Of a DNA stretch of 28,792 nucleotides, positions 757-28,189 are shown piece after piece (the stretch's first letter is position 1; every line of letters begins with the position of its first letter). Source of the stretch: a virus (Duplodnaviria; Heunggongvirae; Uroviricota; Caudoviricetes); IMG/VR virus record IMGVR_UViG_2778261570_000004, positions 1-28,792 of that record; one strand, given 5' to 3'. Both the position numbers and the translations under genes were made by a program. The notes beneath the pieces are model-generated. The model saw only the letters and a list, made by a program, of their open reading frames with translations. It did not search any database and had not been told where the DNA came from.

Positions 757-1977
757 ATGGGAACTGCAATGAGTCAACAAACTGATACTTCTAATCTGGA
801 AATCATCTCAGCCGCGATTGAAACGCTGCGGACACAGATCGCCCTTATTCAAAAGCGGAATCCGGGGGATGACCTGTCCAGACGGTTACATGAGAGCGTC
901 ATTGCCACGACTGATAACCTGGTCGCGGAGATCAACCAGCTACTTGAGGAAGGGACGGTTGATTACAACAAGCTGGTGGATCAGTTTGAGGAATATCAAC
1001 AAGCTGTTAATGATGGCTTGCTCCGTTTTTCACGAGTCACAGGCGTATCAGCGACAGTTGAAAGTCTTGGCGATGCTGTTAATCAATTTGCCGCGAGTAT
1101 GCGTAGTGAGATCGGCAATCTGGAAGCGCGTCTTGAACAGGCAAACACACTGCGCAAATCCGCAGAAGCCGATTTGAGTCGTTACAAAAAAGACTATCCA
1201 GCCAGCCTGTCAAAACGACTGGATGTTGCGGAGAAGGATAACCGTGCGCTGAAAAGAGAGCGTCGGGAACTAAAAGAGCGTTTAACAGAGCTGAATCAGC
1301 AGTGCATTAAGTATCAAGGCGAAGGTGTCACACTGCGTAAAAAGTTAGCAGCAGCGCAGAACATTATTGAAACGCTGAAACGAGAGTGTTCACAGCTTGG
1401 TCATGATCTGAACCGCGCTTGTGGTATGGGACAAAGGCCAGAGACATTCCCGCTCATGTATGACGGGGTGGATGCTATTGCCTATATCCATGAGTACCCG
1501 CATGGTCTGGTTGCGGAGACTGGTCAGCGTGGTGAAGCTCTGTTGACGGCTAATTACCATCAACAAATTAGAACCAACCGCCTGCTGACGATGGATGTGA
1601 TCCCATCAGTATGGGGAACGCCGCTTTACTATCGCCTGCCCGGCTTCGAAACGGACTGGAATACCGATATAGACGAATGCCTGGCAGATAAAATTATGGC
1701 GTACCTGGAGACTGATTTCCCGCGCCTGCATCGCCGGATTATGGACTCTAAGGATGCGCCGATCGATGAATTGAAAATGCGCCCAGAGACGTTGGAAGCT
1801 ATCAAACAGACTGCGTTTGATACCGTATTCAGCGTGGCCTGTATCCCAAGTAGTTTTCATGAAAGCATCCCCTTTATGCAGGGCGACCGTCGTCAAGAAA
1901 TTATTGATGCCTGCCGGGTGTGGGCTAACGAATGGGACAAGAAGAATGGGGGCGTAGAAGATCTTTATGGGAAATAA
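757..1977 (+). CDS. coiled-coil protein of unknown function (406 aa; start may be ATG at 769)
   Basis: Long ORF; N-terminal half heptad-rich with charged residues, C-terminal globular region; bracketed by operator-like motifs. Confidence 0.6.
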   Translation: MGTAMSQQTDTSNLEIISAAIETLRTQIALIQKRNPGDDLSRRLHESVIATTDNLVAEINQLLEEGTVDYNKLVDQFEEYQQAVNDGLLRFSRVTGVSATVESLGDAVNQFAASMRSEIGNLEARLEQANTLRKSAEADLSRYKKDYPASLSKRLDVAEKDNRALKRERRELKERLTELNQQCIKYQGEGVTLRKKLAAAQNIIETLKRECSQLGHDLNRACGMGQRPETFPLMYDGVDAIAYIHEYPHGLVAETGQRGEALLTANYHQQIRTNRLLTMDVIPSVWGTPLYYRLPGFETDWNTDIDECLADKIMAYLETDFPRLHRRIMDSKDAPIDELKMRPETLEAIKQTAFDTVFSVACIPSSFHESIPFMQGDRRQEIIDACRVWANEWDKKNGGVEDLYGK

Positions 1978-1996
1978 TATGTTAGAAATCTAATTT
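1977..1996. promoter_or_regulatory. operator-like motif copy 2 (ATATGTTAGAAATCTAATTT)
   Basis: Same motif family, immediately after the stop of the 757..1977 ORF. Confidence 0.45.
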
Positions 1997-2132
1997 CATT
2001 AAAAGAACATATTGATTGTGAGAGTAACTTAACTTAGAATTTTCCTTGCTGGTGGAGCGTTGCCACATTTCGCTTGCTGGGCTTGATAGTCACTTATTGG
2101 TTGTTGTTCGCCCACCAGCAAATAACAAATTA

Positions 2133-2150
2133 AAGTGTTAGAAAATTACA
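2133..2150. promoter_or_regulatory. operator-like motif copy 3 (AAGTGTTAGAAAATTACA)
   Basis: Same motif core GTTAGAAAA. Confidence 0.4.
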
Positions 2151-2634
2151 TGCATACAGGGACTCGCTTTGGCACCGAGCAAGCCAAAGTTCAGCAGGTT
2201 TAGTGCGTAAAGTGGTTTCAGAGAGAGCACTTTACGGAGTAAACAACAAGACATGTTGAGCCACGGAAGGTCTTTTTAAGATGTTCATTGATGATGGTCC
2301 GGCAGAGAGTAACGGGACTCGCCGCATCGAATCATCATCAATGCACATCCTCAACATTAAGGAGGCATAGGGATTTTTTTGTGGCGATTACCTTTTGCCC
2401 TAAGTCTCCTTAATGTTGCGGTAATGCACCTATGCGGATGCGGCCTTGCATTGTGTCTTGAAAGAATGGGGTAAGGCCGGGGATATCCCCAGGGGGAGGC
2501 ACCCCCGCTGCAACGAACAGCCACAGACGGCAGTCGAGTGATGGAAACGTGCAAAGACTTTAAACCTCGTTACGGCTGGCGTGGCAAACGCGACAACCGA
2601 GACAGAGCGGTGACGGGCGGAGAGAGTGCCGCAT

Positions 2635-2756
2635 CAAGAAAGAAGCCGACTTGTGATCCCTTTCTGCGGGCATTTGAAAGTGAATCCAGCTCAGGCAGTC
2701 GGCTTCTTTCTTGTGTGAGATGTAGCGTATTTGCCCATCTTCGGGTGGGCTTTTTT
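2635..2756 (+). ncRNA. candidate structured small RNA: 17-bp perfect inverted repeat hairpin followed by intrinsic terminator
   Basis: CAAGAAAGAAGCCGACT (2635-2651) pairs perfectly with AGTCGGCTTCTTTCTTG (2697-2713); GCCCA-loop-TGGGC plus T6 at 2733-2756; no credible CDS. Confidence 0.35.
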
Positions 2757-2930
2757 AGGGTTTTCGTCATGGTTAGCGACTTTGCGGCGGTTTAGAACCC
2801 GACCATTAAAGTAAATGCAAACGATGATCTGATGATGGTAGCGGCCTAAGAAGCCTGACGCCACGGGGTATGAGTCGTCCCCCGTCAAAAAATCGACCGC
2901 AGAGTGTCCCCGTCTGTGTATTAGGGAACG

Positions 2931-3026
2931 GGGAGGCATAACAGGCAAGGGCGCTGGTGTGATTAACCAGATGAATGAGAAGGGTCAGGTCTTTCTGGTC
3001 AGCGCCCTTACCTGTTACGTCCCTCC
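2931..3026. repeat. long imperfect hairpin, module copy 1 (ACAGGCAAGGGCGCTG / CAGCGCCCTTACCTGTT)
   Basis: About 26-bp stem with one G-U position; shares ACAGG-AAGGG / CCCTTACC-GTTG arms with copies at 3373, 3583 and 4993. Confidence 0.45.
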
Positions 3027-3216
3027 CGCGTAACAGCCATTGATTAATGGCTTTCTGGGATAACATCCTACTACGGGTATATCCCGTCATGCTGAAGGCG
3101 CTAATCACGCTGGAAGCCAGGGTTGTGCATCCCCTGTTACCGAATTGCAGCCAGGGCGCGGTGCGCCGAAAAGCATACGGAGGTGGAAGCCCTCGCCGGA
3201 GACGTACCCGGCAAGT

Positions 3217-3292
3217 GATGGTGTAGCTCAGCGGTTAGAGCGGTTGACTGTTAATCAACGGGTCGATGGTTCAAATCCATCCACCATCGCCA
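3217..3292 (+). tRNA. tRNA-Asn (anticodon GTT)
   Basis: Manual cloverleaf: acceptor GATGGTG/CACCATC, D-arm GCTC..GAGC, anticodon loop CTGTTAA, T-arm GATGG-TTCAAAT-CCATC, encoded CCA. Confidence 0.85.
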
Positions 3293-3294
3293 AT

Positions 3295-3370
3295 GCCGGT
3301 TTAGCTCAGTTGGTAGAGCGCCTGCCTTGTAAGCAGGATGTCAGCGGTTCGAGTCCGTTAATCGGCACCA
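3295..3370 (+). tRNA. tRNA-Thr (anticodon TGT)
   Basis: Manual cloverleaf: acceptor GCCGGTT/AATCGGC (one G-U), anticodon stem CCTGC/GCAGG with loop CTTGTAA, T-loop TTCGAGT, encoded CCA. Confidence 0.85.
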
Positions 3371-3372
3371 GC

Positions 3373-3460
3373 ACAACAGGTAAGGGTATTTTGCGACGTC
3401 GGAGATCGCCGAGCTTGGCAGAGGGTTCGAATCCCTACGAAGTACCCTTACCGTTGTGAT
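3373..3460. repeat. hairpin module copy 2, containing a T-arm-like GGTTCGAATCC (tRNA-like remnant)
   Basis: Arms ACAACAGGTAAGGG / CCCTTACCGTTGTG; internal AGGGTTCGAATCCCT; does not fold as a canonical 76-nt tRNA. Confidence 0.4.
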
Positions 3461-3582
3461 GAATGCGCAGGCTGATGCGCGAAAGACATTGCAGCTATTG
3501 CGGAAAAGAGCTGTTCGGCGGGGCAATTAAACGCCCGTGAGAGTCTGAAATAACCGCAAGCCGGAGATCAGCACCGGTCATC

Positions 3583-3657
3583 ACAACACAACAGGTAAGG
3601 GCATTCTCCCTTATGGGGCTTGGCTTAAATGCATCGAGTGCTCTTACCGTTGTGATG
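3583..3657. repeat. hairpin module copy 3
   Basis: CATCACAACACAACAGGTAAGGG ... CTCTTACCGTTGTGATG. Confidence 0.4.
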
Positions 3658-4018
3658 AAGTGCAGCTCTTTGAAGCAACCAGAAGATAAGCATCTGGCTT
3701 CACAACATAAACCGCAGGAACGACCAATAAACGGTAGTCCGTATGGAGAACACCCCGTTGAGGAAGAGGCCTGGCCGGAACCGTAACCGGCACTATAACG
3801 TTGAGAACACTGGCGTAACGGGTTCATATCCCAATCTACAGGTCCACCAGGAATGCTCTTTCCGTTGCGGTGAATGCGGCTAAGCGCACGCGGAACAGTT
3901 AAAACAATCCTCCTTAATGGTTAAACATTCCGACGTTAATTGTTAACTGGTTAACGTCACCGGGAGGCACTCGGCACCGCAATCTAATAAATATGTCACT
4001 TTTATTGAGGGATAACCA

Positions 4019-4453
4019 ATGTTCGGTAAATTGTTCGGCAAGAAAGTCGCTTCTGCAAAAGTAGAGCTGAAAAAAGTTGAGAATCGCGATCTGATGGAGG
4101 CCATCATCGGTGGCTGTTTGTTGGTGTCTGCCGCTGATGGTGAAATCGAAAAAGAAGAAACAGCGAAACTTGATCAGCTTGTCCGCTCTAATCCGCGTCT
4201 TAGTCATTTTGGTAACGAAATTACTGCAACAATTACCCGCTTTACCGAGCAACTGGAAGCTGGCTTCCGTGTTGGTCGCATGAATATCCTTCGCGAAATT
4301 GAAGATATCAAAAACGATCCAAAAGAAGCGGAAGAAGTATTCGTTAACATGCTGACAATTGCAGAAGCGGACGGTGAAATCGAGCCAGCAGAACACAAAG
4401 TACTGGAAGAAGTAGGCCGTCGTTTAGGTCTTCGTGTGGAAGATTATCTGTAA
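4019..4453 (+). CDS. TerB-like protein (tellurite-resistance TerB family; resembles P1 TciA)
   Basis: Repeated ADGEIE...E motif (SAADGEIEKEE, AEADGEIEPAEH) typical of TerB; SD GAGGGA before ATG. Confidence 0.65.
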   Translation: MFGKLFGKKVASAKVELKKVENRDLMEAIIGGCLLVSAADGEIEKEETAKLDQLVRSNPRLSHFGNEITATITRFTEQLEAGFRVGRMNILREIEDIKNDPKEAEEVFVNMLTIAEADGEIEPAEHKVLEEVGRRLGLRVEDYL

Positions 4454-4617
4454 TGGCAAGCAAGGCACGTATCGCAATCGCCATTGGTTTTCTCTTGCTG
4501 TCCGTGCTGGTGGATTTCACCAGCACAATCCTGTCAGTTTTATCGGACGGGGCGTTGGTGGCAGTAGCTGTAACATTGGTATGGCCGATATTAAAAACAG
4601 CTTCTAAGGATCAGTGA
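4453..4617 (+). CDS. small hydrophobic peptide (54 aa), translationally coupled (TAATG)
   Basis: MASKARIAIAIGFLLLSVLVDF...; stop/start overlap with TerB-like gene; below track size cutoff. Confidence 0.45.
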   Translation: MASKARIAIAIGFLLLSVLVDFTSTILSVLSDGALVAVAVTLVWPILKTASKDQ

Positions 4618-4724
4618 TGGGCTTCTGGGATTTTGCTGACAAGCATCCAATTGTTCTCGTTGTCATTGCTGGCATAGTTGTAGGCGGTATTGCTGGCGTC
4701 ATAGAAGCACTCAGGAAACAGTAA
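4617..4724 (+). CDS. small hydrophobic peptide (35 aa), translationally coupled (TGATG)
   Basis: MGFWDFADKHPIVLVVIAGIVVGGIAGVIEALRKQ; stop 4 nt before the tRNA. Confidence 0.4.
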   Translation: MGFWDFADKHPIVLVVIAGIVVGGIAGVIEALRKQ

Positions 4725-4727
4725 TCC

Positions 4728-4803
4728 GGCCCTTTAGCTCAGTGGTTAGAGCTGGCGACTCATAATCGCACGGTCACCGGTTCAAGTCCGGTAGGGGCCA
4801 CCA
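4728..4803 (+). tRNA. tRNA with anticodon CAT, ileX-like (Ile2 if lysidine-modified, otherwise Met)
   Basis: Acceptor GGCCCTT/AGGGGCC, anticodon loop CTCATAA, T-arm CCGG-TTCAAGT-CCGG, encoded CCA; strongly resembles E. coli ileX as recalled. Confidence 0.85.
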
Positions 4804-4992
4804 TATTTGGTTGTAACACGGCGTCTGGCACATGCGTCGTTAGCGGTCTGGTGACGTTAAAAGGGGGGAACCTTGCCCCTAGCTCAGGCAACGAACCAGG
4901 TAGCCGGAATGTGCAAGCCACCGTTTGTTGTTTCTCGGGTAAAGGGATTCACCATCCTGGCGATTCGGTGTGACAGCCGGGAAGAGTACGGC

Positions 4993-5045
4993 GCACAACA
5001 GGAAAAGGCGTTTAATTAACGTGAGCGCCGTTTCCGTTGTGGTAA
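4993..5045. repeat. hairpin module copy 5 (ACAACAGGAAAAGGCG / CGCCGTTTCCGTTGTGG)
   Basis: Same arm family as 2931, 3373, 3583. Confidence 0.35.
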
Positions 5046-5262
5046 TTGCGGCTATGCGCTCGTGACGAAGCCATTTTCATTCACTACGTTCTGATAAGTG
5101 ACGTCGCCAGGAGTGGCTAACCTGGCAGGTGGAGGCACCACCGCCACAACTCCTTTCAATTCATCATATAGCCGCTCAGGCTGTAACCCTTAATTAATAC
5201 GAAGTTTCGACATCTCTATCGGTTTAACCGAGGGATGGTCGCGCGTGTAAAAAGGAGACGTT

Positions 5263-6338: not shown

Positions 6339-6731
6339 ATGGAGCATATCAGCAGCGCAGAAATTGCGGATATCATGATTAGGGCTGACTGCTATCTGAC
6401 AGTCACCGAAATTACCACTCTAGCTAAAGAAAAATATCCTCACCTTCATGTTTCACGCGTAAGTGTAACCAACATCATTCGGCATTTTGTGCGGTCAAGC
6501 CGAGCTATTTGTGAGCTTGATGATCGTGTTTACCCACGGAAATACTGGTTGCATGGCCTGAACGGATATCAGTTCAAGGTGCGCGGGCGCACCCCTGAAT
6601 ACGGCAGTTTGCTGGTTAAAAACTGTAGCCGGAAGTCTGCAGAACTGGCGCGACAAGAGCAGCGCAAGCTGGTGGACATGGCTAATAAGCTGTGGAATGC
6701 CGCAGTTAAAAAGCGTGGTGTTGCTTTATGA
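6339..6731 (+). CDS. hypothetical protein immediately upstream of terminase genes (130 aa)
   Basis: ORF; 4-nt overlap with terminase small subunit gene; position analogous to a late-gene activator in P1-type phages, not verified. Confidence 0.55.
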   Translation: MEHISSAEIADIMIRADCYLTVTEITTLAKEKYPHLHVSRVSVTNIIRHFVRSSRAICELDDRVYPRKYWLHGLNGYQFKVRGRTPEYGSLLVKNCSRKSAELARQEQRKLVDMANKLWNAAVKKRGVAL

Positions 6732-8092
6732 GCCTTGTTAATTGGGAAGAGCACCGCGCCAAATTTATAGCGTTGCGTGAAGAAAAAGGGATCACCGTAA
6801 AGGAATACTGCGAGCAACACGACCTTAGCTTCAATACCGCCAGAAAGCATCTCAATATGAAAAAAAATGAGGTGCGGTCGCAGGTGAAGACTACAAAAAA
6901 AAGCACCAAATCACCTGAAAAAAAACGGGCAGGAAGAGCAAAAAAAAGGCCAGAAGAGGGTACAGAAACAACAAAATTTACAGAAACTGACAATTCACAG
7001 AGCGGAAGTTCTTTCCGGAGCATGCCGAGAAAGAAAACTTCGGATCATAAAAATAACGACAATAATAACAATGAGATAAAAGAATCTGTCAGGAGATCAT
7101 TGCGCGAAAAAATGGCGAAAATGATCCCCACCGAAGATAAATGCGCCTCAAAAATCGAGGGATCTTCAGCAATGATCCCTGGCGGTGCTGTGCAGCGTGC
7201 CACGTTGCCCACTACGAGTGTGGCTCGCGACATGATGAAGAACGGCGCAGAAGAGCACCTGCGGTTAGCAATTCAAATGGCGCAAGAACGCGCACTTCAG
7301 TACCAAAGCATTGTTGATCAGGAGGCCGAACGCCTACAGGCGGAGATAGACGCCCTGGGTGATGAACAGCCAGAAGGAATGCACCCTGGGCAGCGACTTC
7401 TCGGTCTAATCAGTGACGCGGCCTACTACATGAACGATTTTATCAGTAGGTTGGCAGCGATATATCAGTCCGAACAAAAGCTGCGACAGGGTGATGAAAA
7501 ACTTCGTCAGGGTGCTCGCCAGCAAGCATTCAGAGAGGCCGAGGCCAGAGAAAAACTCGAATTAGCACGCCTACAGGCCGAACAGCGTGGCAAAGAGATT
7601 GAATATCGCATTGGCGCTGACGCACGCGCAGCCAGAGTTATCGCCGCCGCTATACGTATGCGTGAGCGCGAGGAGCTGGACGATATCGGTGTTGCTGAAT
7701 ACATCGAGCGTCAGGGTGTCAGTGTCCCGGCTATCCTCGCGGCGCGCGCGGCGAAAGCTATCACTCTTCTCGAACCTCCAGTTTCTGACATCAATGATGT
7801 TGATGATGAACAGCTGGACAAAGAAGCGAAGGAGTTTGCATCGCTTCAGGCTAACCATCCGCAATGGCTGGCAGAGCGCCGGGCGGATGTGGCAACCATT
7901 GTTGAAGATCTGGGGTGCGGAGATTACGACCACAATGGCGAGCGTAAGGCTGGGGAATTCGAGGCCAACGATGAAGAGTTGGACATTGACCCTTCGGCAA
8001 CGGCTGAAATTTACGGTGATTATGATGCATCAGATGCAGGGTATGACGCCGGAGATGATGATATTGCGATAGAACCGCCGGAGGATGACTAA
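6728..8092 (+). CDS. terminase small subunit-like protein (PacA-like)
   Basis: N-terminal HTH-like segment, Lys-rich linker, coiled coil, acidic C-terminal tail; TAATG-coupled to large subunit. Confidence 0.6.
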   Translation: MSLVNWEEHRAKFIALREEKGITVKEYCEQHDLSFNTARKHLNMKKNEVRSQVKTTKKSTKSPEKKRAGRAKKRPEEGTETTKFTETDNSQSGSSFRSMPRKKTSDHKNNDNNNNEIKESVRRSLREKMAKMIPTEDKCASKIEGSSAMIPGGAVQRATLPTTSVARDMMKNGAEEHLRLAIQMAQERALQYQSIVDQEAERLQAEIDALGDEQPEGMHPGQRLLGLISDAAYYMNDFISRLAAIYQSEQKLRQGDEKLRQGARQQAFREAEAREKLELARLQAEQRGKEIEYRIGADARAARVIAAAIRMREREELDDIGVAEYIERQGVSVPAILAARAAKAITLLEPPVSDINDVDDEQLDKEAKEFASLQANHPQWLAERRADVATIVEDLGCGDYDHNGERKAGEFEANDEELDIDPSATAEIYGDYDASDAGYDAGDDDIAIEPPEDD

Positions 8093-27877: not shown

Positions 27878-27982
27878 AATACTGACTGTTGCGCCATGGC
27901 ATTATCGTGGGGTATATTTCTACGGCACCTTAGAAAAACGGGTGCCGGGATTGGAACCCCGGATAATGTCAAAGGCGACACA

Positions 27983-28004
27983 GACGCCGAAAGCGTCTTT
28001 TTTT
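27983..28004 (+). terminator. rho-independent terminator (GACGC-cgaaa-GCGTC plus T7)
   Basis: Perfect 5-bp stem and run of seven T. Confidence 0.6.
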
Positions 28005-28189
28005 GTGTCATGCCATCGCACAGCCATACGTAGCGTTTAGCTCAGAGATCAATGGTAGTGCTGGCTGGGCTGCCGAAAGGCAGGCCGGTTCCCTTTGACG
28101 CCGGTAGTTCCAACCCAGTCAGTGCTACCGCCATTGAGATTGGAACCTCACGCGGTAGCTCCTTAACTTAGTCAAAGGAGGCTGCCAAT

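What the first reader, a model, noticed from the sequence alone, without database searches (positions are those of the whole stretch)
3379..3452. tRNA-like element with perfect 7-bp acceptor-like stem and canonical T-loop but broken architecture
GGTAAGG at 3379-3385 pairs perfectly with CCTTACC at 3446-3452 and encloses AGGGTTCGAATCCCT, a near-canonical T-arm. Spacing does not permit a standard cloverleaf: extra nucleotides lie between the T-arm and the 3' acceptor strand and there is no encoded CCA. Likely a pseudo-tRNA or a tRNA-derived structural RNA directly after tRNA-Thr.
Basis: seen in the sequence. Interest (0 to 1): 0.4.

Follow-up and report, generated by a model that had tools for sequence, protein, structure and literature searches.

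The report
Conserved tRNA-like cap on phage RNA hairpin
Right after two real tRNA genes, phage P1 carries a conserved miniature tRNA look-alike on top of a long RNA stem; the same unannotated RNA array also holds a tmRNA-style "degradation tag" template, so phages may tamper with or supplement the bacterial ribosome-rescue system.

Summary
GGTAAGG (3379-3385) pairs with CCTTACC (3446-3452) and encloses a canonical T-arm (3422-3436). The stem is much longer than reported, 21 bp across 3372-3393/3438-3458. No tool calls a tRNA at default settings.

It is not a decaying pseudogene. The same ~55-nt core occurs on over 100 viral contigs and in 8.6% of complete E. coli genomes. It sits in at least five different sequence contexts. 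The core is nearly invariant, while 13 of 21 stem pairs show compensatory changes.

The fold is a mini-cloverleaf: an extended acceptor-like stem, a GG-containing D-like segment, a 3-bp stub in place of the anticodon arm, and a T-arm. No CCA is encoded.

It is one cassette of a modular, unannotated phage RNA array. Upstream at 2817-2849, that array carries a tmRNA-type tag frame (ANDDLMMVAA*) that is conserved at the peptide level.

My best reading (about 0.45) is a tmRNA-TLD-like tRNA mimic excised by tRNA-processing enzymes. The main rival (about 0.3) is a pure processing handle. Membership in tRNA, canonical tmRNA or Y RNA fails on tested features. The mechanism is unproven.

The parts
3372..3393 (+). 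5' strand of the long stem (CACAAC, bulged A3378, then GGTAAGGGTATTTTG). The inner 7 nt (TATTTTG, 3387-3393) are the acceptor-like strand.
   Evidence: RNAfold. Alignment A1 has 21 pairs, 13 with changes on both sides, and 91.6% of cells are paired versus 32-52% when the partner is slid. RNAalifold recovers the same helix independently.
3394..3408 (+). D-like segment CGACGTCGGAGATCG. It reads either as a 3-bp stem CGA/TCG with a 9-nt GG-containing loop, or as an unpaired 14-nt D-loop like the one in tmRNA.
   Evidence: Invariant except two loop positions in 23 distinct sequences. There is no covariation information, partly because the search pattern fixed it. RNAalifold leaves it mostly unpaired.
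3408..3419 (+). Short stub hairpin (G)CC-loop-GG(Y) with a 4-7-nt loop of variable sequence, sitting where a tRNA has its anticodon arm.
   Evidence: C41-G51 and C42-G50 are conserved. The third pair is A-U or G-U, and loop length and sequence vary.
3422..3436 (+). T-arm: AGGG / TTCGAAT / CCCT, a 4-bp stem plus a G.A apposition, with a canonical 7-nt T-loop.
   Evidence: Direct reading. The motif is enriched over chance. It is invariant in all family members.
3438..3458 (+). 3' strand of the long stem (CGAAGTACCCTTACC then GTTGTG). There is no CCA after the 7-nt acceptor-like strand.
2760..2849 (+). tmRNA-type coding module. It has a conserved 5' part GTTTTCGTCATGGTTAGCGACTTTGCGG, the resume context TAAAT|GCA at 2817, the tag frame ANDDLMMVAA and a TAA stop at 2847-2849.
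   Evidence: Weak Rfam hits that rest on the resume/tag region only: tmRNA_permuted 22.8 bits, E=0.026, and beta_tmRNA E=0.0014 on the homologue in L014. All 25 distinct nucleotide variants keep 10 codons plus a stop, with many synonymous changes. The same 15-mer lies at the resume codon of genuine tmRNAs.
3217..3370 (+). tRNA-Asn (3217-3292) and tRNA-Thr (3295-3370), lying between the tag module and the tRNA-like hairpin.
   Evidence: ARAGORN and Rfam.
3453..3587 (+). The '3' domain' that follows the hairpin, closed by GTTGTGATGA (3453-3462) and TCATCACAAC (3578-3587). It shares GTTGTG with the base of the long stem, so the two pairings exclude each other.
   Evidence: About 98% identical to segments of lambdoid and Stx phages. 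The closing helix covaries between this window (GTGATGA/TCATCAC) and mEp460 (GTGGTGA/TCACCAC). Alternative pairings appear in the 300-nt fold.
3587..3654 (+). Second hairpin of the same family: the same lower stem CACAAC-A-GGTAAGGGCA / TGCTCTTACC-GTTGTG, but a different apex with no T-arm.
   Evidence: the repeat finder families D2 and D3. Census of hairpins.
3866..3981 (+). STnc100/PasD-like domain just upstream of tciA.
   Evidence: Rfam RF02076 at 42 bits (gathering score 47), E=3.5e-7. In locus L097 a full STnc100 (109.7 bits) directly follows the same tRNA-like hairpin.

Best explanation
The element is a self-contained tRNA mimic. An acceptor-like helix is stacked on a canonical T-arm. 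It also has a GG-containing D-like segment and only a 3-bp stub in place of the anticodon arm. All of this is mounted on a conserved long stem.

It is one interchangeable cassette of a modular, noncoding phage RNA array. In P1 the array is transcribed with the ban operon leader; in lambdoid phages it lies between Q and the lysis genes. The same array carries a tmRNA-type tag template, ANDDLMMVAA* at 2817-2849 in this window.

Proposed mechanism. The array is transcribed as one long RNA. The hairpin folds. Host tRNA-maturation enzymes (RNase P at the 5' side, endo- and exonucleases and possibly the CCA-adding enzyme at the 3' side) recognise the acceptor/T-arm stack and release a ~60-nt tRNA-like RNA. 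That RNA resembles the tRNA-like domain (TLD) of tmRNA and engages tmRNA partners, SmpB above all. In that role it would either serve the phage tag template or act as a non-chargeable decoy that modulates host trans-translation.

Shown here: the fold of the stem, the conservation, the modular contexts, the linked tag frame and the selection acting on that frame. Inferred: transcription as one RNA, the processing, SmpB binding and any effect on trans-translation.
For: - Structure: a 21-bp stem with 13 compensatory pairs, with every internal segment invariant or nearly so. The T-loop is far above chance.
- Spread: 115 viral-contig loci with 33 distinct hairpin sequences, one copy in a Uetakevirus (BUCT554), 488 plasmid records, and 464 of 5426 complete E. 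coli genomes.
- Tag linkage: a tag frame lies on the same strand in all P1-type loci (about -588 nt) and in 13 of 22 other core-selected loci, at fixed offsets (-139, +110/+121, -303).
- Swapping within one RNA: in L014 the hairpin lies directly 5' of the tag module, while in L022 it caps the next hairpin 3' of it.
- Tag selection: all 25 nucleotide variants keep 10 codons plus a stop, and 24 end in (A/V)A.
- Resume context: it is identical to genuine tmRNAs and to 28 ARAGORN-called permuted phage tmRNAs.
- 3' half of the core: it matches tmRNA 3' tRNA-domains better (best score 32-34) than any of 379 phage tRNAs (24-26).
- Other caps: sequence-unrelated T-arm-bearing caps occupy the same hairpin position in other phages, and in L467 one is followed by A-CCA.
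- Precedent: the TLD-only ssrA of mycobacteriophage DS6A, and reported inhibition of tmRNA by a similar TLD-like molecule whether or not chargeable (PMC4131195, PMC11915505).
Against: - The pair equivalent to 3:70 is U.G, U.U or C-G, never the G3.U70 that AlaRS needs.
- No CCA is encoded.
- The helix continues below the acceptor-like 7 bp, so the RNase P site would lie inside a duplex.
- ARAGORN and Rfam tmRNA/tRNA models do not recognise the element. The tmRNA hits rest only on the tag region and are below gathering score.
- In a tag-selected sample, only about 13 of 44 tag modules have this particular core nearby.
- Nine core-bearing loci have no tag frame nearby, for example L097, where an STnc100 sRNA follows instead.
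- D-like and T-stem pairings carry no covariation information, partly because my search patterns fixed them.
- The similarity of the 5' half to tmRNA D-loops is inconclusive.
- No expression or processing data were found.
Confidence: 0.45

Rival explanations
1. A pure processing handle. The tRNA-like cap and long stem recruit RNase P, RNase III or RNase E to cut the long untranslated transcript. That would define the ends and stability of neighbouring RNAs (the two tRNAs, the STnc100/PasD-like sRNA domains, the tciA-ban mRNA). There would be no link to trans-translation. This is tRNA punctuation as seen in mitochondria, MALAT1-mascRNA or MHV68 tRNA-miRNA transcripts.
For: - The hairpin occurs without any tag frame directly upstream of a full STnc100 sRNA (L097) and of STnc100-like 3' domains (L093, L108).
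- Hairpins with the same lower stem carry many unrelated caps, so the lower stem itself looks like the conserved signal.
- The stem plus T-stem is about 25 bp, which is RNase III-sized.
- The region is mosaic, with recombination at the hairpin arms.
- No G3.U70 and no CCA.
Against: - A processing signal does not need a near-invariant 55-nt core that includes a GG D-like segment.
- It does not explain why several sequence-unrelated T-arm caps recur at the same place next to tag frames.
- It does not explain why the tag frame is under peptide-level selection.
- RNase P normally needs an unpaired 5' leader.
Confidence: 0.3
2. An inert relic. A tRNA or tmRNA fragment was trapped between recombinogenic inverted repeats and spreads only by hitch-hiking with the mosaic region.
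For: - There are no variants with changes inside the core to prove selection by covariation.
- Scans with the T-arm alone or the D-like part alone found no divergent relatives.
- Some copies look chimeric or mismatched (L008, L093, L224).
Against: - The flanking stem has diverged by many compensatory changes while the core stayed fixed.
- The core is present in at least five unrelated contexts and in different phage lineages (P1-like, lambdoid-type late-operon contexts, Uetakevirus).
- The stub loop varies freely while its stem is kept.
Confidence: 0.1
3. A DNA-level element. The imperfect palindrome would be a recombination or cassette-boundary site (integron attC-like, or a single-strand hairpin signal) rather than an RNA.
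For: Module boundaries among P1-like phages coincide with the hairpin arms. A bulged base and a conserved mismatch are present in the stem.
Against: - G.U/U.G pairs, which are valid only in RNA of this strand, are frequent in the stem: U.G at one pair in 17 of 23 sequences.
- A T-loop has no meaning in DNA.
- No integrase or recombinase is consistently adjacent.
- The arms do not fit the attC core RYYYAAC/GTTRRRY.
- Orientation relative to the transcription unit was the same in every locus examined in detail.
Confidence: 0.07
4. Part of a protein-coding gene on the minus strand. The P1 reference annotates plp, 'putative lipoprotein', and upl here.
For: The P1 reference record annotates plp across the homologous stretch, overlapping trnT.
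Against: - In this window a 196-bp insertion splits the frame into 61-aa and 110-aa ORFs.
- No Pfam family matches any of the ORFs.
- Other annotators leave the stretch empty.
- The substitution pattern is that of an RNA helix.
Confidence: 0.02

Closest known systems
tRNA-like domain (TLD) of tmRNA, especially the 'TLD-only' ssrA of mycobacteriophage DS6A and CDS-less tmRNAs (PMC4131195, PMC11915505)
   Same: - About 60-nt size.
- An acceptor-type helix stacked on a canonical T-arm.
- A GG-containing D segment with little or no stem.
- The anticodon arm or P2 reduced to a stub.
- Phage-borne.
- A tmRNA-type tag frame in the same RNA array.
- The 3' half resembles tmRNA 3' tRNA-domains (UUGG..GAGGGUUCGAAUCCCU).
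   Different: - No G3.U70.
- No encoded CCA.
- The acceptor helix continues for 14 more base pairs, so both ends are buried in a stem.
- The tag frame is not inserted between the two TLD halves. It lies outside the TLD, upstream or downstream depending on the phage.
- Not recognised by ARAGORN or by the Rfam tmRNA models.
Permuted (two-piece) tmRNA, Rfam RF04321/RF01850, including those on marine phage contigs
   Same: The resume context UAAAU|GCA AAC GAU GA and the 10-aa AND..AA tag are the same. The 5' part of the coding module (GUUUUCGUCACGUUAGCGAC) resembles the 5' tRNA-domain plus D-loop of permuted coding pieces (GGGGAUGCUUUGGGUUCGAC).
   Different: In permuted genes the order is T-arm, acceptor 3' strand, CCA, intervening loop, acceptor 5' strand. 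Here the tRNA-like unit is in the normal 5'-to-3' order and closes on itself. Scores are far below gathering (20-23 bits versus 47).
Bacterial Y RNA-like YrlA (Rfam RF02553)
   Same: A long basal stem carrying a tRNA-like module with T-arm and D-arm but no anticodon. Y RNA-like genes also occur in phages (own knowledge).
   Different: In YrlA the stem joins at the anticodon side and the T-arm precedes the D-arm. The only Rfam hit in this region is a sub-threshold one (25.6 bits versus 69) spanning the two real tRNAs, not this element.
STnc100 / PasD prophage sRNAs (Rfam RF02076; bioRxiv 10.64898/2026.05.13.724894)
   Same: They belong to the same modular array. An STnc100-like domain lies at 3866-3981, and a full STnc100 directly follows the same tRNA-like hairpin in L097.
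   Different: They are the downstream domain, not the tRNA-like hairpin itself. They are described as Hfq-dependent base-pairing sRNAs.
tRNA-like processing signals (mascRNA of MALAT1, MHV68 tRNA-miRNA units, tRNA punctuation)
   Same: A tRNA mimic embedded in a longer transcript next to other noncoding RNAs. Expected recognition by RNase P or RNase Z (own knowledge).
   Different: Those have free leader and trailer strands at the acceptor end. Here both strands stay paired. Cleavage has not been tested.

Membership tests
tRNA (Rfam RF00005 / ARAGORN) | Cloverleaf with a 5-bp anticodon stem and a 7-nt anticodon loop | tested here: not met
   Only a 3-bp stub with a 4-7-nt variable loop. No call by ARAGORN or Rfam, even at E<=10. 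The relaxed mode gives only a pseudogene-flagged call overlapping tRNA-Thr.
tRNA (Rfam RF00005 / ARAGORN) | T-arm with a UUCRANY loop closed by G53-C61 | tested here: met
   AGGG-TTCGAAT-CCCT at 3422-3436.
tRNA (Rfam RF00005 / ARAGORN) | 7-bp acceptor stem with free ends and a 3' discriminator plus CCA (encoded or added) | tested here: not met
   The helix runs on for 21 bp. The sequence after the 7th pair is CCCU (other variants CUCU).
tmRNA tRNA-like domain | G3.U70 alanine identity pair | tested here: not met
   The equivalent pair is U.G in 17, C-G in 4 and U.U in 2 of 23 sequences (columns 21/75).
tmRNA tRNA-like domain | T-arm plus a D-loop carrying GG and a UCGAC-like motif, without an anticodon arm | tested here: inconclusive
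   CGACGUCGGAGAUCGCC compared with tmRNA ACCUGGUUUCGAC. The architecture fits. Similarity of the 5' half is no better than to tRNAs, while the 3' half is better to tmRNA.
tmRNA tRNA-like domain | Linked tag reading frame with a GCA resume codon, about 10 codons ending in Ala-Ala, and a stop | tested here: met
   ANDDLMMVAA* at 2817-2849. The association is at fixed offsets in other phages, and the frame is conserved through synonymous changes. The linkage is not universal.
tmRNA tRNA-like domain | Tag frame located between the 5' and 3' halves of the TLD (standard form), or the permuted order with an excised loop | tested here: not met
   The tRNA-like unit closes on itself and the tag lies outside it.
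tmRNA tRNA-like domain | Binding of SmpB and charging with alanine | not testable with these tools
   Needs biochemistry.
Y RNA-like YrlA (RF02553) | Match to the covariance model; T-arm before D-arm, with the stem at the anticodon side | tested here: not met
   No hit on 3371-3458. The only hit is sub-threshold and lies on the two real tRNAs. The order of the arms is reversed.
STnc100 / PasD sRNA (RF02076) | Match to the covariance model | tested here: not met
   The element itself has no hit. The neighbouring 3866-3981 scores 42 bits, below the gathering score of 47.
RNase P / tRNA-punctuation substrate | Cleavage by RNase P at the base of the acceptor-like helix | not testable with these tools
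   Only geometry can be judged. The acceptor/T stack is present, but the leader is base-paired.

The most novel reading that the evidence does not exclude
P1-like, lambdoid, N4-like and Ackermannviridae phages of enterobacteria carry a previously unrecognised, rearranged tmRNA-like system. It has a tag template under peptide-level selection (ANDDLMMVAA, ANDEQFLAVA and others) and a separate, self-closing tRNA-like domain mounted on a processing stem. Together or separately, these would let the phage take over, replace or block ribosome rescue during infection. This would be a third topology of tmRNA genes, beside the standard and permuted forms.
Probability: 0.3. Interest if true: 0.9.

Novelty: new variant of a known kind. 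Interest (0 to 1): 0.68.

Why it matters
P1 is a 70-year-old model phage, and this stretch has been annotated as two hypothetical minus-strand genes or left blank.

If the reading holds, a widespread family of phage noncoding RNAs would be tied to ribosome rescue. The family sits in the P1 ban leader, in the late-operon leader of lambdoid phages (the slot that holds Shiga toxin genes and tRNAs in Stx phages; own knowledge) and beside the tRNA clusters of some virulent phages. It would add a new gene topology to tmRNA biology. It would also give a concrete entry point to the old observation that some phages depend on host tmRNA (own knowledge: lambda-immP22 hybrids, Mu).

It would further explain where prophage sRNAs such as STnc100 and PasD come from: they would be modules of the same arrays.

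Even on the modest reading, a processing handle, it is a clean bacterial example of a conserved tRNA mimic used inside a long noncoding transcript.

Tried and rejected
- Normal or relaxed tRNA detection. Nothing at default settings. Relaxed ARAGORN gives only an overlapping pseudo-call.
- Rfam at permissive thresholds on 1950-5100. There is no family for the element. The YrlA, miRNA and plastid hits are spurious.
- Y RNA. Rejected on the order of the arms and the absence of a model hit.
- put/nut-type antitermination RNA. I considered it because the shared module in mEp460 lies between cI and the early-left genes, and the 3' arms contain boxA-like GCTCTTA/TGCTCTTT. One literature search gave no sequence to compare, and the boxA-like run is base-paired, so I left it as an untested side idea.
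- Integron attC-like site. The arm sequences do not fit the core consensus, and the G.U pairs point to RNA.
- plp/upl coding. Rejected.
- Divergent relatives. Scans with the T-arm alone or the D-like segment alone returned only unrelated tRNAs, tmRNA ends or GC-rich coding DNA, plus one truncated copy (L224).
- A canonical TLD built from distant segments. I tested the upstream GTTTTCG pairing with the strand after the T-arm. It works partly in P1 only and not in L014 or L022, so I dropped it.
- Pas sRNA sequences to map onto the array. None are in the held supplement.
- The P1 genome paper is not held.
- No covariance model was built, because the family's core is too invariant to gain from one.

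Full report
**Setting.** The window is a P1-like phage (Punavirus). Position 3100-4100 matches phage P1 isolates at 96-99% identity. Gene order is dmt, the C1-controlled ban promoters, a 'dicF-like region', tRNA-Asn (3217-3292), tRNA-Thr (3295-3370), about 650 nt without a convincing ORF (3371-4018), tciA (4019-4453), tciB, tciC, tRNA-Met/Ile(CAT) (4728-4803), and ban further downstream (6728-8092). By the P1 reference annotation, the finding therefore lies on the transcribed strand of the ban operon leader.

**Observation.**
- The T-loop pattern occurs four times in the window, three in real tRNAs and once here, against 0.22 expected.
- The pairing is longer than reported: 21 bp with one bulged A, and the strand between the T-arm and CCTTACC is itself paired (z = -5.98).
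- ARAGORN and Rfam call nothing here at default or permissive thresholds.
- ARAGORN at 80% thresholds produces only a pseudogene-flagged tRNA-Tyr that overlaps tRNA-Thr.
- NCBI's pipeline annotates nothing under the element in 473 E. coli records.

**Conservation.**
- The 101-nt stretch is 97-100% identical in 488 plasmid records and present in 464 of 5426 complete E. coli genomes, almost always on plasmids.
- One 85%-identical copy lies in Enterobacter phage BUCT554 (a Uetakevirus), in a noncoding stretch between morphogenesis genes.
- A pattern scan of IMG/VR for the D-like plus T-arm core returned 115 loci and 33 distinct hairpins.
- The flanks fall into at least five classes:
  - after tRNA-Thr (P1 type);
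  - at the end of a large conserved 5' domain (L007, L035, L043, L102);
  - after GCGCACTGGCCCGGTGTGATTAATAATGGGCGC (L008, L022, L030 and others);
  - directly after an intrinsic terminator (L009, L014, L073, L093, L097, L108);
  - after CGTCAGCTCCACGAAACGGAGCC (L017, L027, L077).
- In an alignment of 23 distinct copies, the stem has 13 of 21 pairs with changes on both sides. 91.6% of cells are paired, against 32-52% when the partner is slid.
- The penultimate inner pair alone takes five pair types.
- The core varies only at two D-loop positions, in the loop of the stub, and at one junction base.
- RNAalifold independently returns the long stem, the T-arm and a GCC/GGY stub, and leaves the D-like segment mostly single-stranded.
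- My search pattern fixed much of the core, so its invariance is partly by construction. However, scans that fixed only the T-arm or only the D-like part found no further relatives except one truncated copy. The two parts travel together, and the family is narrow in sequence.

**Architecture.** Read as a tRNA, the element has:
- a 7-bp acceptor-like helix (TATTTTG/CGAAGTA), continued downward by 14 more pairs;
- no spacer before a D-like segment with an invariant GG;
- a 3-bp stub with a free loop where the anticodon arm should be;
- three junction bases;
- a T-arm with G53-C61 and UUCGAAU;
- one A, and then the 3' strand.

The 3:70-equivalent pair is U.G, U.U or C-G, never G.U. No CCA follows. 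So it is neither a tRNA nor a canonical alanine-accepting TLD.

**The hairpin is one of a family.**
- The window holds further hairpins with the same lower stem (CACAAC-A-GGTAAGRGCA / TGCTCTTWCC-GTTGTG) but other caps, at 3587-3654, 4993-5046 and, in altered form, 2930-3026. A remnant lies at about 3713-3870.
- Among P1-like phages the region is mosaic, with break points at these arms. The P1 reference has only the T-arm hairpin. P7 and Ro157c2YLVW have only the second type. This window has both, plus a 135-nt module (3453-3587) that is about 98% identical to segments of lambdoid and Stx phages.
- In other phages the same hairpin position carries sequence-unrelated caps that also contain a T-arm, several of them abutting the 3' strand in the same way:
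  - L101: GCGG-TTCGACT-CCGC, then A, then the stem.
  - L374: GGG-TTCGAGT-CCC, then G, then the stem.
  - L123 (Klebsiella phage Magnus): a class-II-like cap.
  - L383 and L374: a CAGG/CGGG T-arm inside a larger cap.
  - L467: T-arm, TCCTGGA, A, CCA, with a local 5' strand TCCAGGA.
  - L418: GGGTGAT ... GCGGGTTCGATTCCCGC GTCACTC T CCCA.
- Recurrence of a T-arm stacked on the stem, in unrelated sequences, argues that the tRNA-like geometry is what is selected.

**The tmRNA link.**
- Upstream of the tRNAs, right after the terminator of the dicF-like RNA, the window reads TAAAT GCA AAC GAT GAT CTG ATG ATG GTA GCG GCC TAA, that is ANDDLMMVAA* (E. coli ssrA encodes ANDENYALAA).
- Rfam's permuted-tmRNA model hits 2744-2849 at 22.8 bits (E = 0.026). 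The beta-proteobacterial tmRNA model hits the L014 homologue at E = 0.0014. Both hits rest on the resume and tag region only and are below gathering score.
- The 15-mer AAATGCAAACGATGA lies exactly at the resume codon of ARAGORN-called tmRNAs of Noviherbaspirillum and Legionella. It also lies there in 28 ARAGORN-called permuted tmRNAs on IMG/VR phage contigs.
- The enterobacterial-phage type has 25 distinct nucleotide variants. All keep exactly ten codons plus a stop in the GCA frame, and 24 end in (A/V)A. There are many synonymous differences (CTG/TTG/CTT, GTT/GTA/GTC, GCG/GCT/GCC/GCA, GAG/GAA, TAA/TAG). The other two frames are broken at variable places. I take that as peptide-level selection.
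- None of these modules is called a tmRNA by ARAGORN.
- According to the tmRNA database papers, P1 and lambdoid phages are not among phages known to carry ssrA (PMC4131195, PMC11915505).

**Linkage of tag and tRNA-like cap.**
- In all P1-type loci the tag lies about 588 nt upstream on the same strand.
- In 13 of 22 other core-selected loci it lies at fixed offsets: tag then hairpin at -139, hairpin then tag at +110/+121, or -303.
- L014 and L022 are the same RNA unit: terminator, hairpin a, tag module, hairpin b, 3' domain, terminator. The cap sits on hairpin a in L014 and on hairpin b in L022.
- In L014 the unit lies between a Q-like antiterminator gene, followed by a promoter-like site and a short terminated leader, and the holin gene. 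That is the late-operon leader of a lambdoid phage.
- The linkage is not obligatory. In a tag-selected sample only about 13 of 44 modules have this core nearby. Nine core-bearing loci have no tag.
- In L097 the hairpin is followed at once by a full STnc100 sRNA at 109.7 bits. The window's own 3866-3981 is STnc100-like at 42 bits.
- STnc100 and PasD are prophage sRNAs found near Q, TerB and RusA genes (bioRxiv 10.64898/2026.05.13.724894). That fits these arrays.

**Similarity to tmRNA TLDs.**
- The 3' half (CUUGGYAGAGGGUUCGAAUCCCUAC) aligns with the 3' tRNA-domain of permuted phage tmRNAs (UUUGGACGAGGGUUCGACUCCCUCC). It scores 32-34 against 26 such domains, versus 24-26 against 379 phage tRNAs.
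- The 5' half gives no discrimination.
- The architecture (GG-bearing D segment, no anticodon arm, stub) is that of TLD-only molecules such as the ssrA of mycobacteriophage DS6A. A similar molecule is reported to inhibit tmRNA whether or not it can be charged, perhaps by titrating SmpB (PMC4131195).

**Interpretation.** I commit to a tRNA mimic of the tmRNA-TLD kind that is released or exposed by tRNA-processing enzymes and engages the trans-translation machinery (0.45).
- Two sub-versions remain open: a partner for the phage tag template, or a non-chargeable SmpB decoy. The conserved wobble in reversed orientation at 3:70 and the lack of CCA favour the decoy. The selected tag frame favours a working tagging system whose tRNA-like part I may not have understood.
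- The main rival is a pure processing handle (0.3).
- An inert relic (0.1), a DNA site (0.07) and minus-strand coding (0.02) are less likely.
- Topology is the chief difficulty for any canonical tmRNA function. Both ends of the tRNA-like unit are buried in a helix, and the tag lies outside the unit.

**Novelty.** The element matches no Rfam family and is not annotated in any record I saw. It fails the tested defining features of tRNA, canonical tmRNA and YrlA. It works like, and probably derives from, a tmRNA TLD, so I file it as a new variant of a known kind. I could not check the tmRNA database itself.

Noticed in passing
window 2760-2849: A tmRNA-type coding module with resume codon GCA at 2817, tag ANDDLMMVAA and TAA at 2847-2849. 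It sits just after the terminator of the dicF-like RNA. It is not annotated in P1 records and not called by ARAGORN. The same module occurs in Klebsiella phage Magnus (Ackermannviridae), the N4-like phage 24-32N, phage Bas79 and lambdoid-type contigs.
   Followed up: yes
window 3453-3587: A 135-nt module about 98% identical to segments of lambdoid and Stx2 phages (mEp460, IME207, Stx2c phages). In mEp460 it lies between the cI repressor gene and the early-left genes. The 40-nt start (..CGTTGTGGTGAATGCGCAGGCTGATGCGC) recurs at about 90% identity in 190 phage records from very different families.
   Followed up: partly
window 4804-5160: A large conserved noncoding RNA-like domain after tRNA-Met(CAT) (TTTGGTTGTAACACGGCGT.TGGCACATGCGTCGTTAGCGGTCTGG ... 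GGTAGCCGGAATGTGCAAG ...). It is shared with mEp460 (L001 2750-2935) and BUCT554 (L007 2830-3000) and ends in a hairpin of the same family (4993-5046). It has no Rfam match.
   Followed up: partly
window 3820-3832: A second T-loop-like hairpin, GGG-TTCATAT-CCC, lies inside the remnant of a third family hairpin. The intact form is in P1 isolates, for example L002 3478-3543.
   Followed up: no
window 2495, 2930, 3959, 5132: A recurrent small hairpin with the loop G-GAGGCA-C (GGGGGAGGCACCCCC, GGGGAGGCA.., CCGGGAGGCACTCGG, GGTGGAGGCACCACC). It is also the last hairpin of the Rfam STnc100 consensus. It may be a protein- or Hfq-related motif.
   Followed up: no
window 3341-3827, minus strand: The P1 reference genes plp and upl (hypothetical, minus strand, with plp overlapping trnT) are probably not genes. 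The frame is split here by a 196-bp insertion, and no Pfam family matches.
   Followed up: partly
window 3640-3650, 3855-3865, 5030-5040: The 3' arms of the family hairpins contain GCTCTTA or TGCTCTTT, the same letters as lambda and rrn boxA (own knowledge). This could bear on Rho-resistant transcription of this long untranslated leader. I did not test it, and the run is base-paired in the predicted fold.
   Followed up: no
window 27925-28135: Rfam calls isrK (62.7 bits) and C4 antisense RNA (77.1 bits). I take this to be the P1/P7 immI region. It is ordinary.
   Followed up: no
loci L371-L476 (IMG/VR): 28 phage contigs carry ARAGORN-called permuted tmRNAs with tags such as ANDDSFTPMALAA and ANDERFALAA, some only about 310 nt long.
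   Followed up: partly
L004 2237-2323 and L006 2218-2304 (phages D6, P7); L005 1698-1784: Relatives of this window carry an extra class-II tRNA in the same region that the window lacks: tRNA-Ser(UGA)-like with encoded CCA in D6 and P7, and tRNA-Tyr in Ro157c2YLVW.
   Followed up: no
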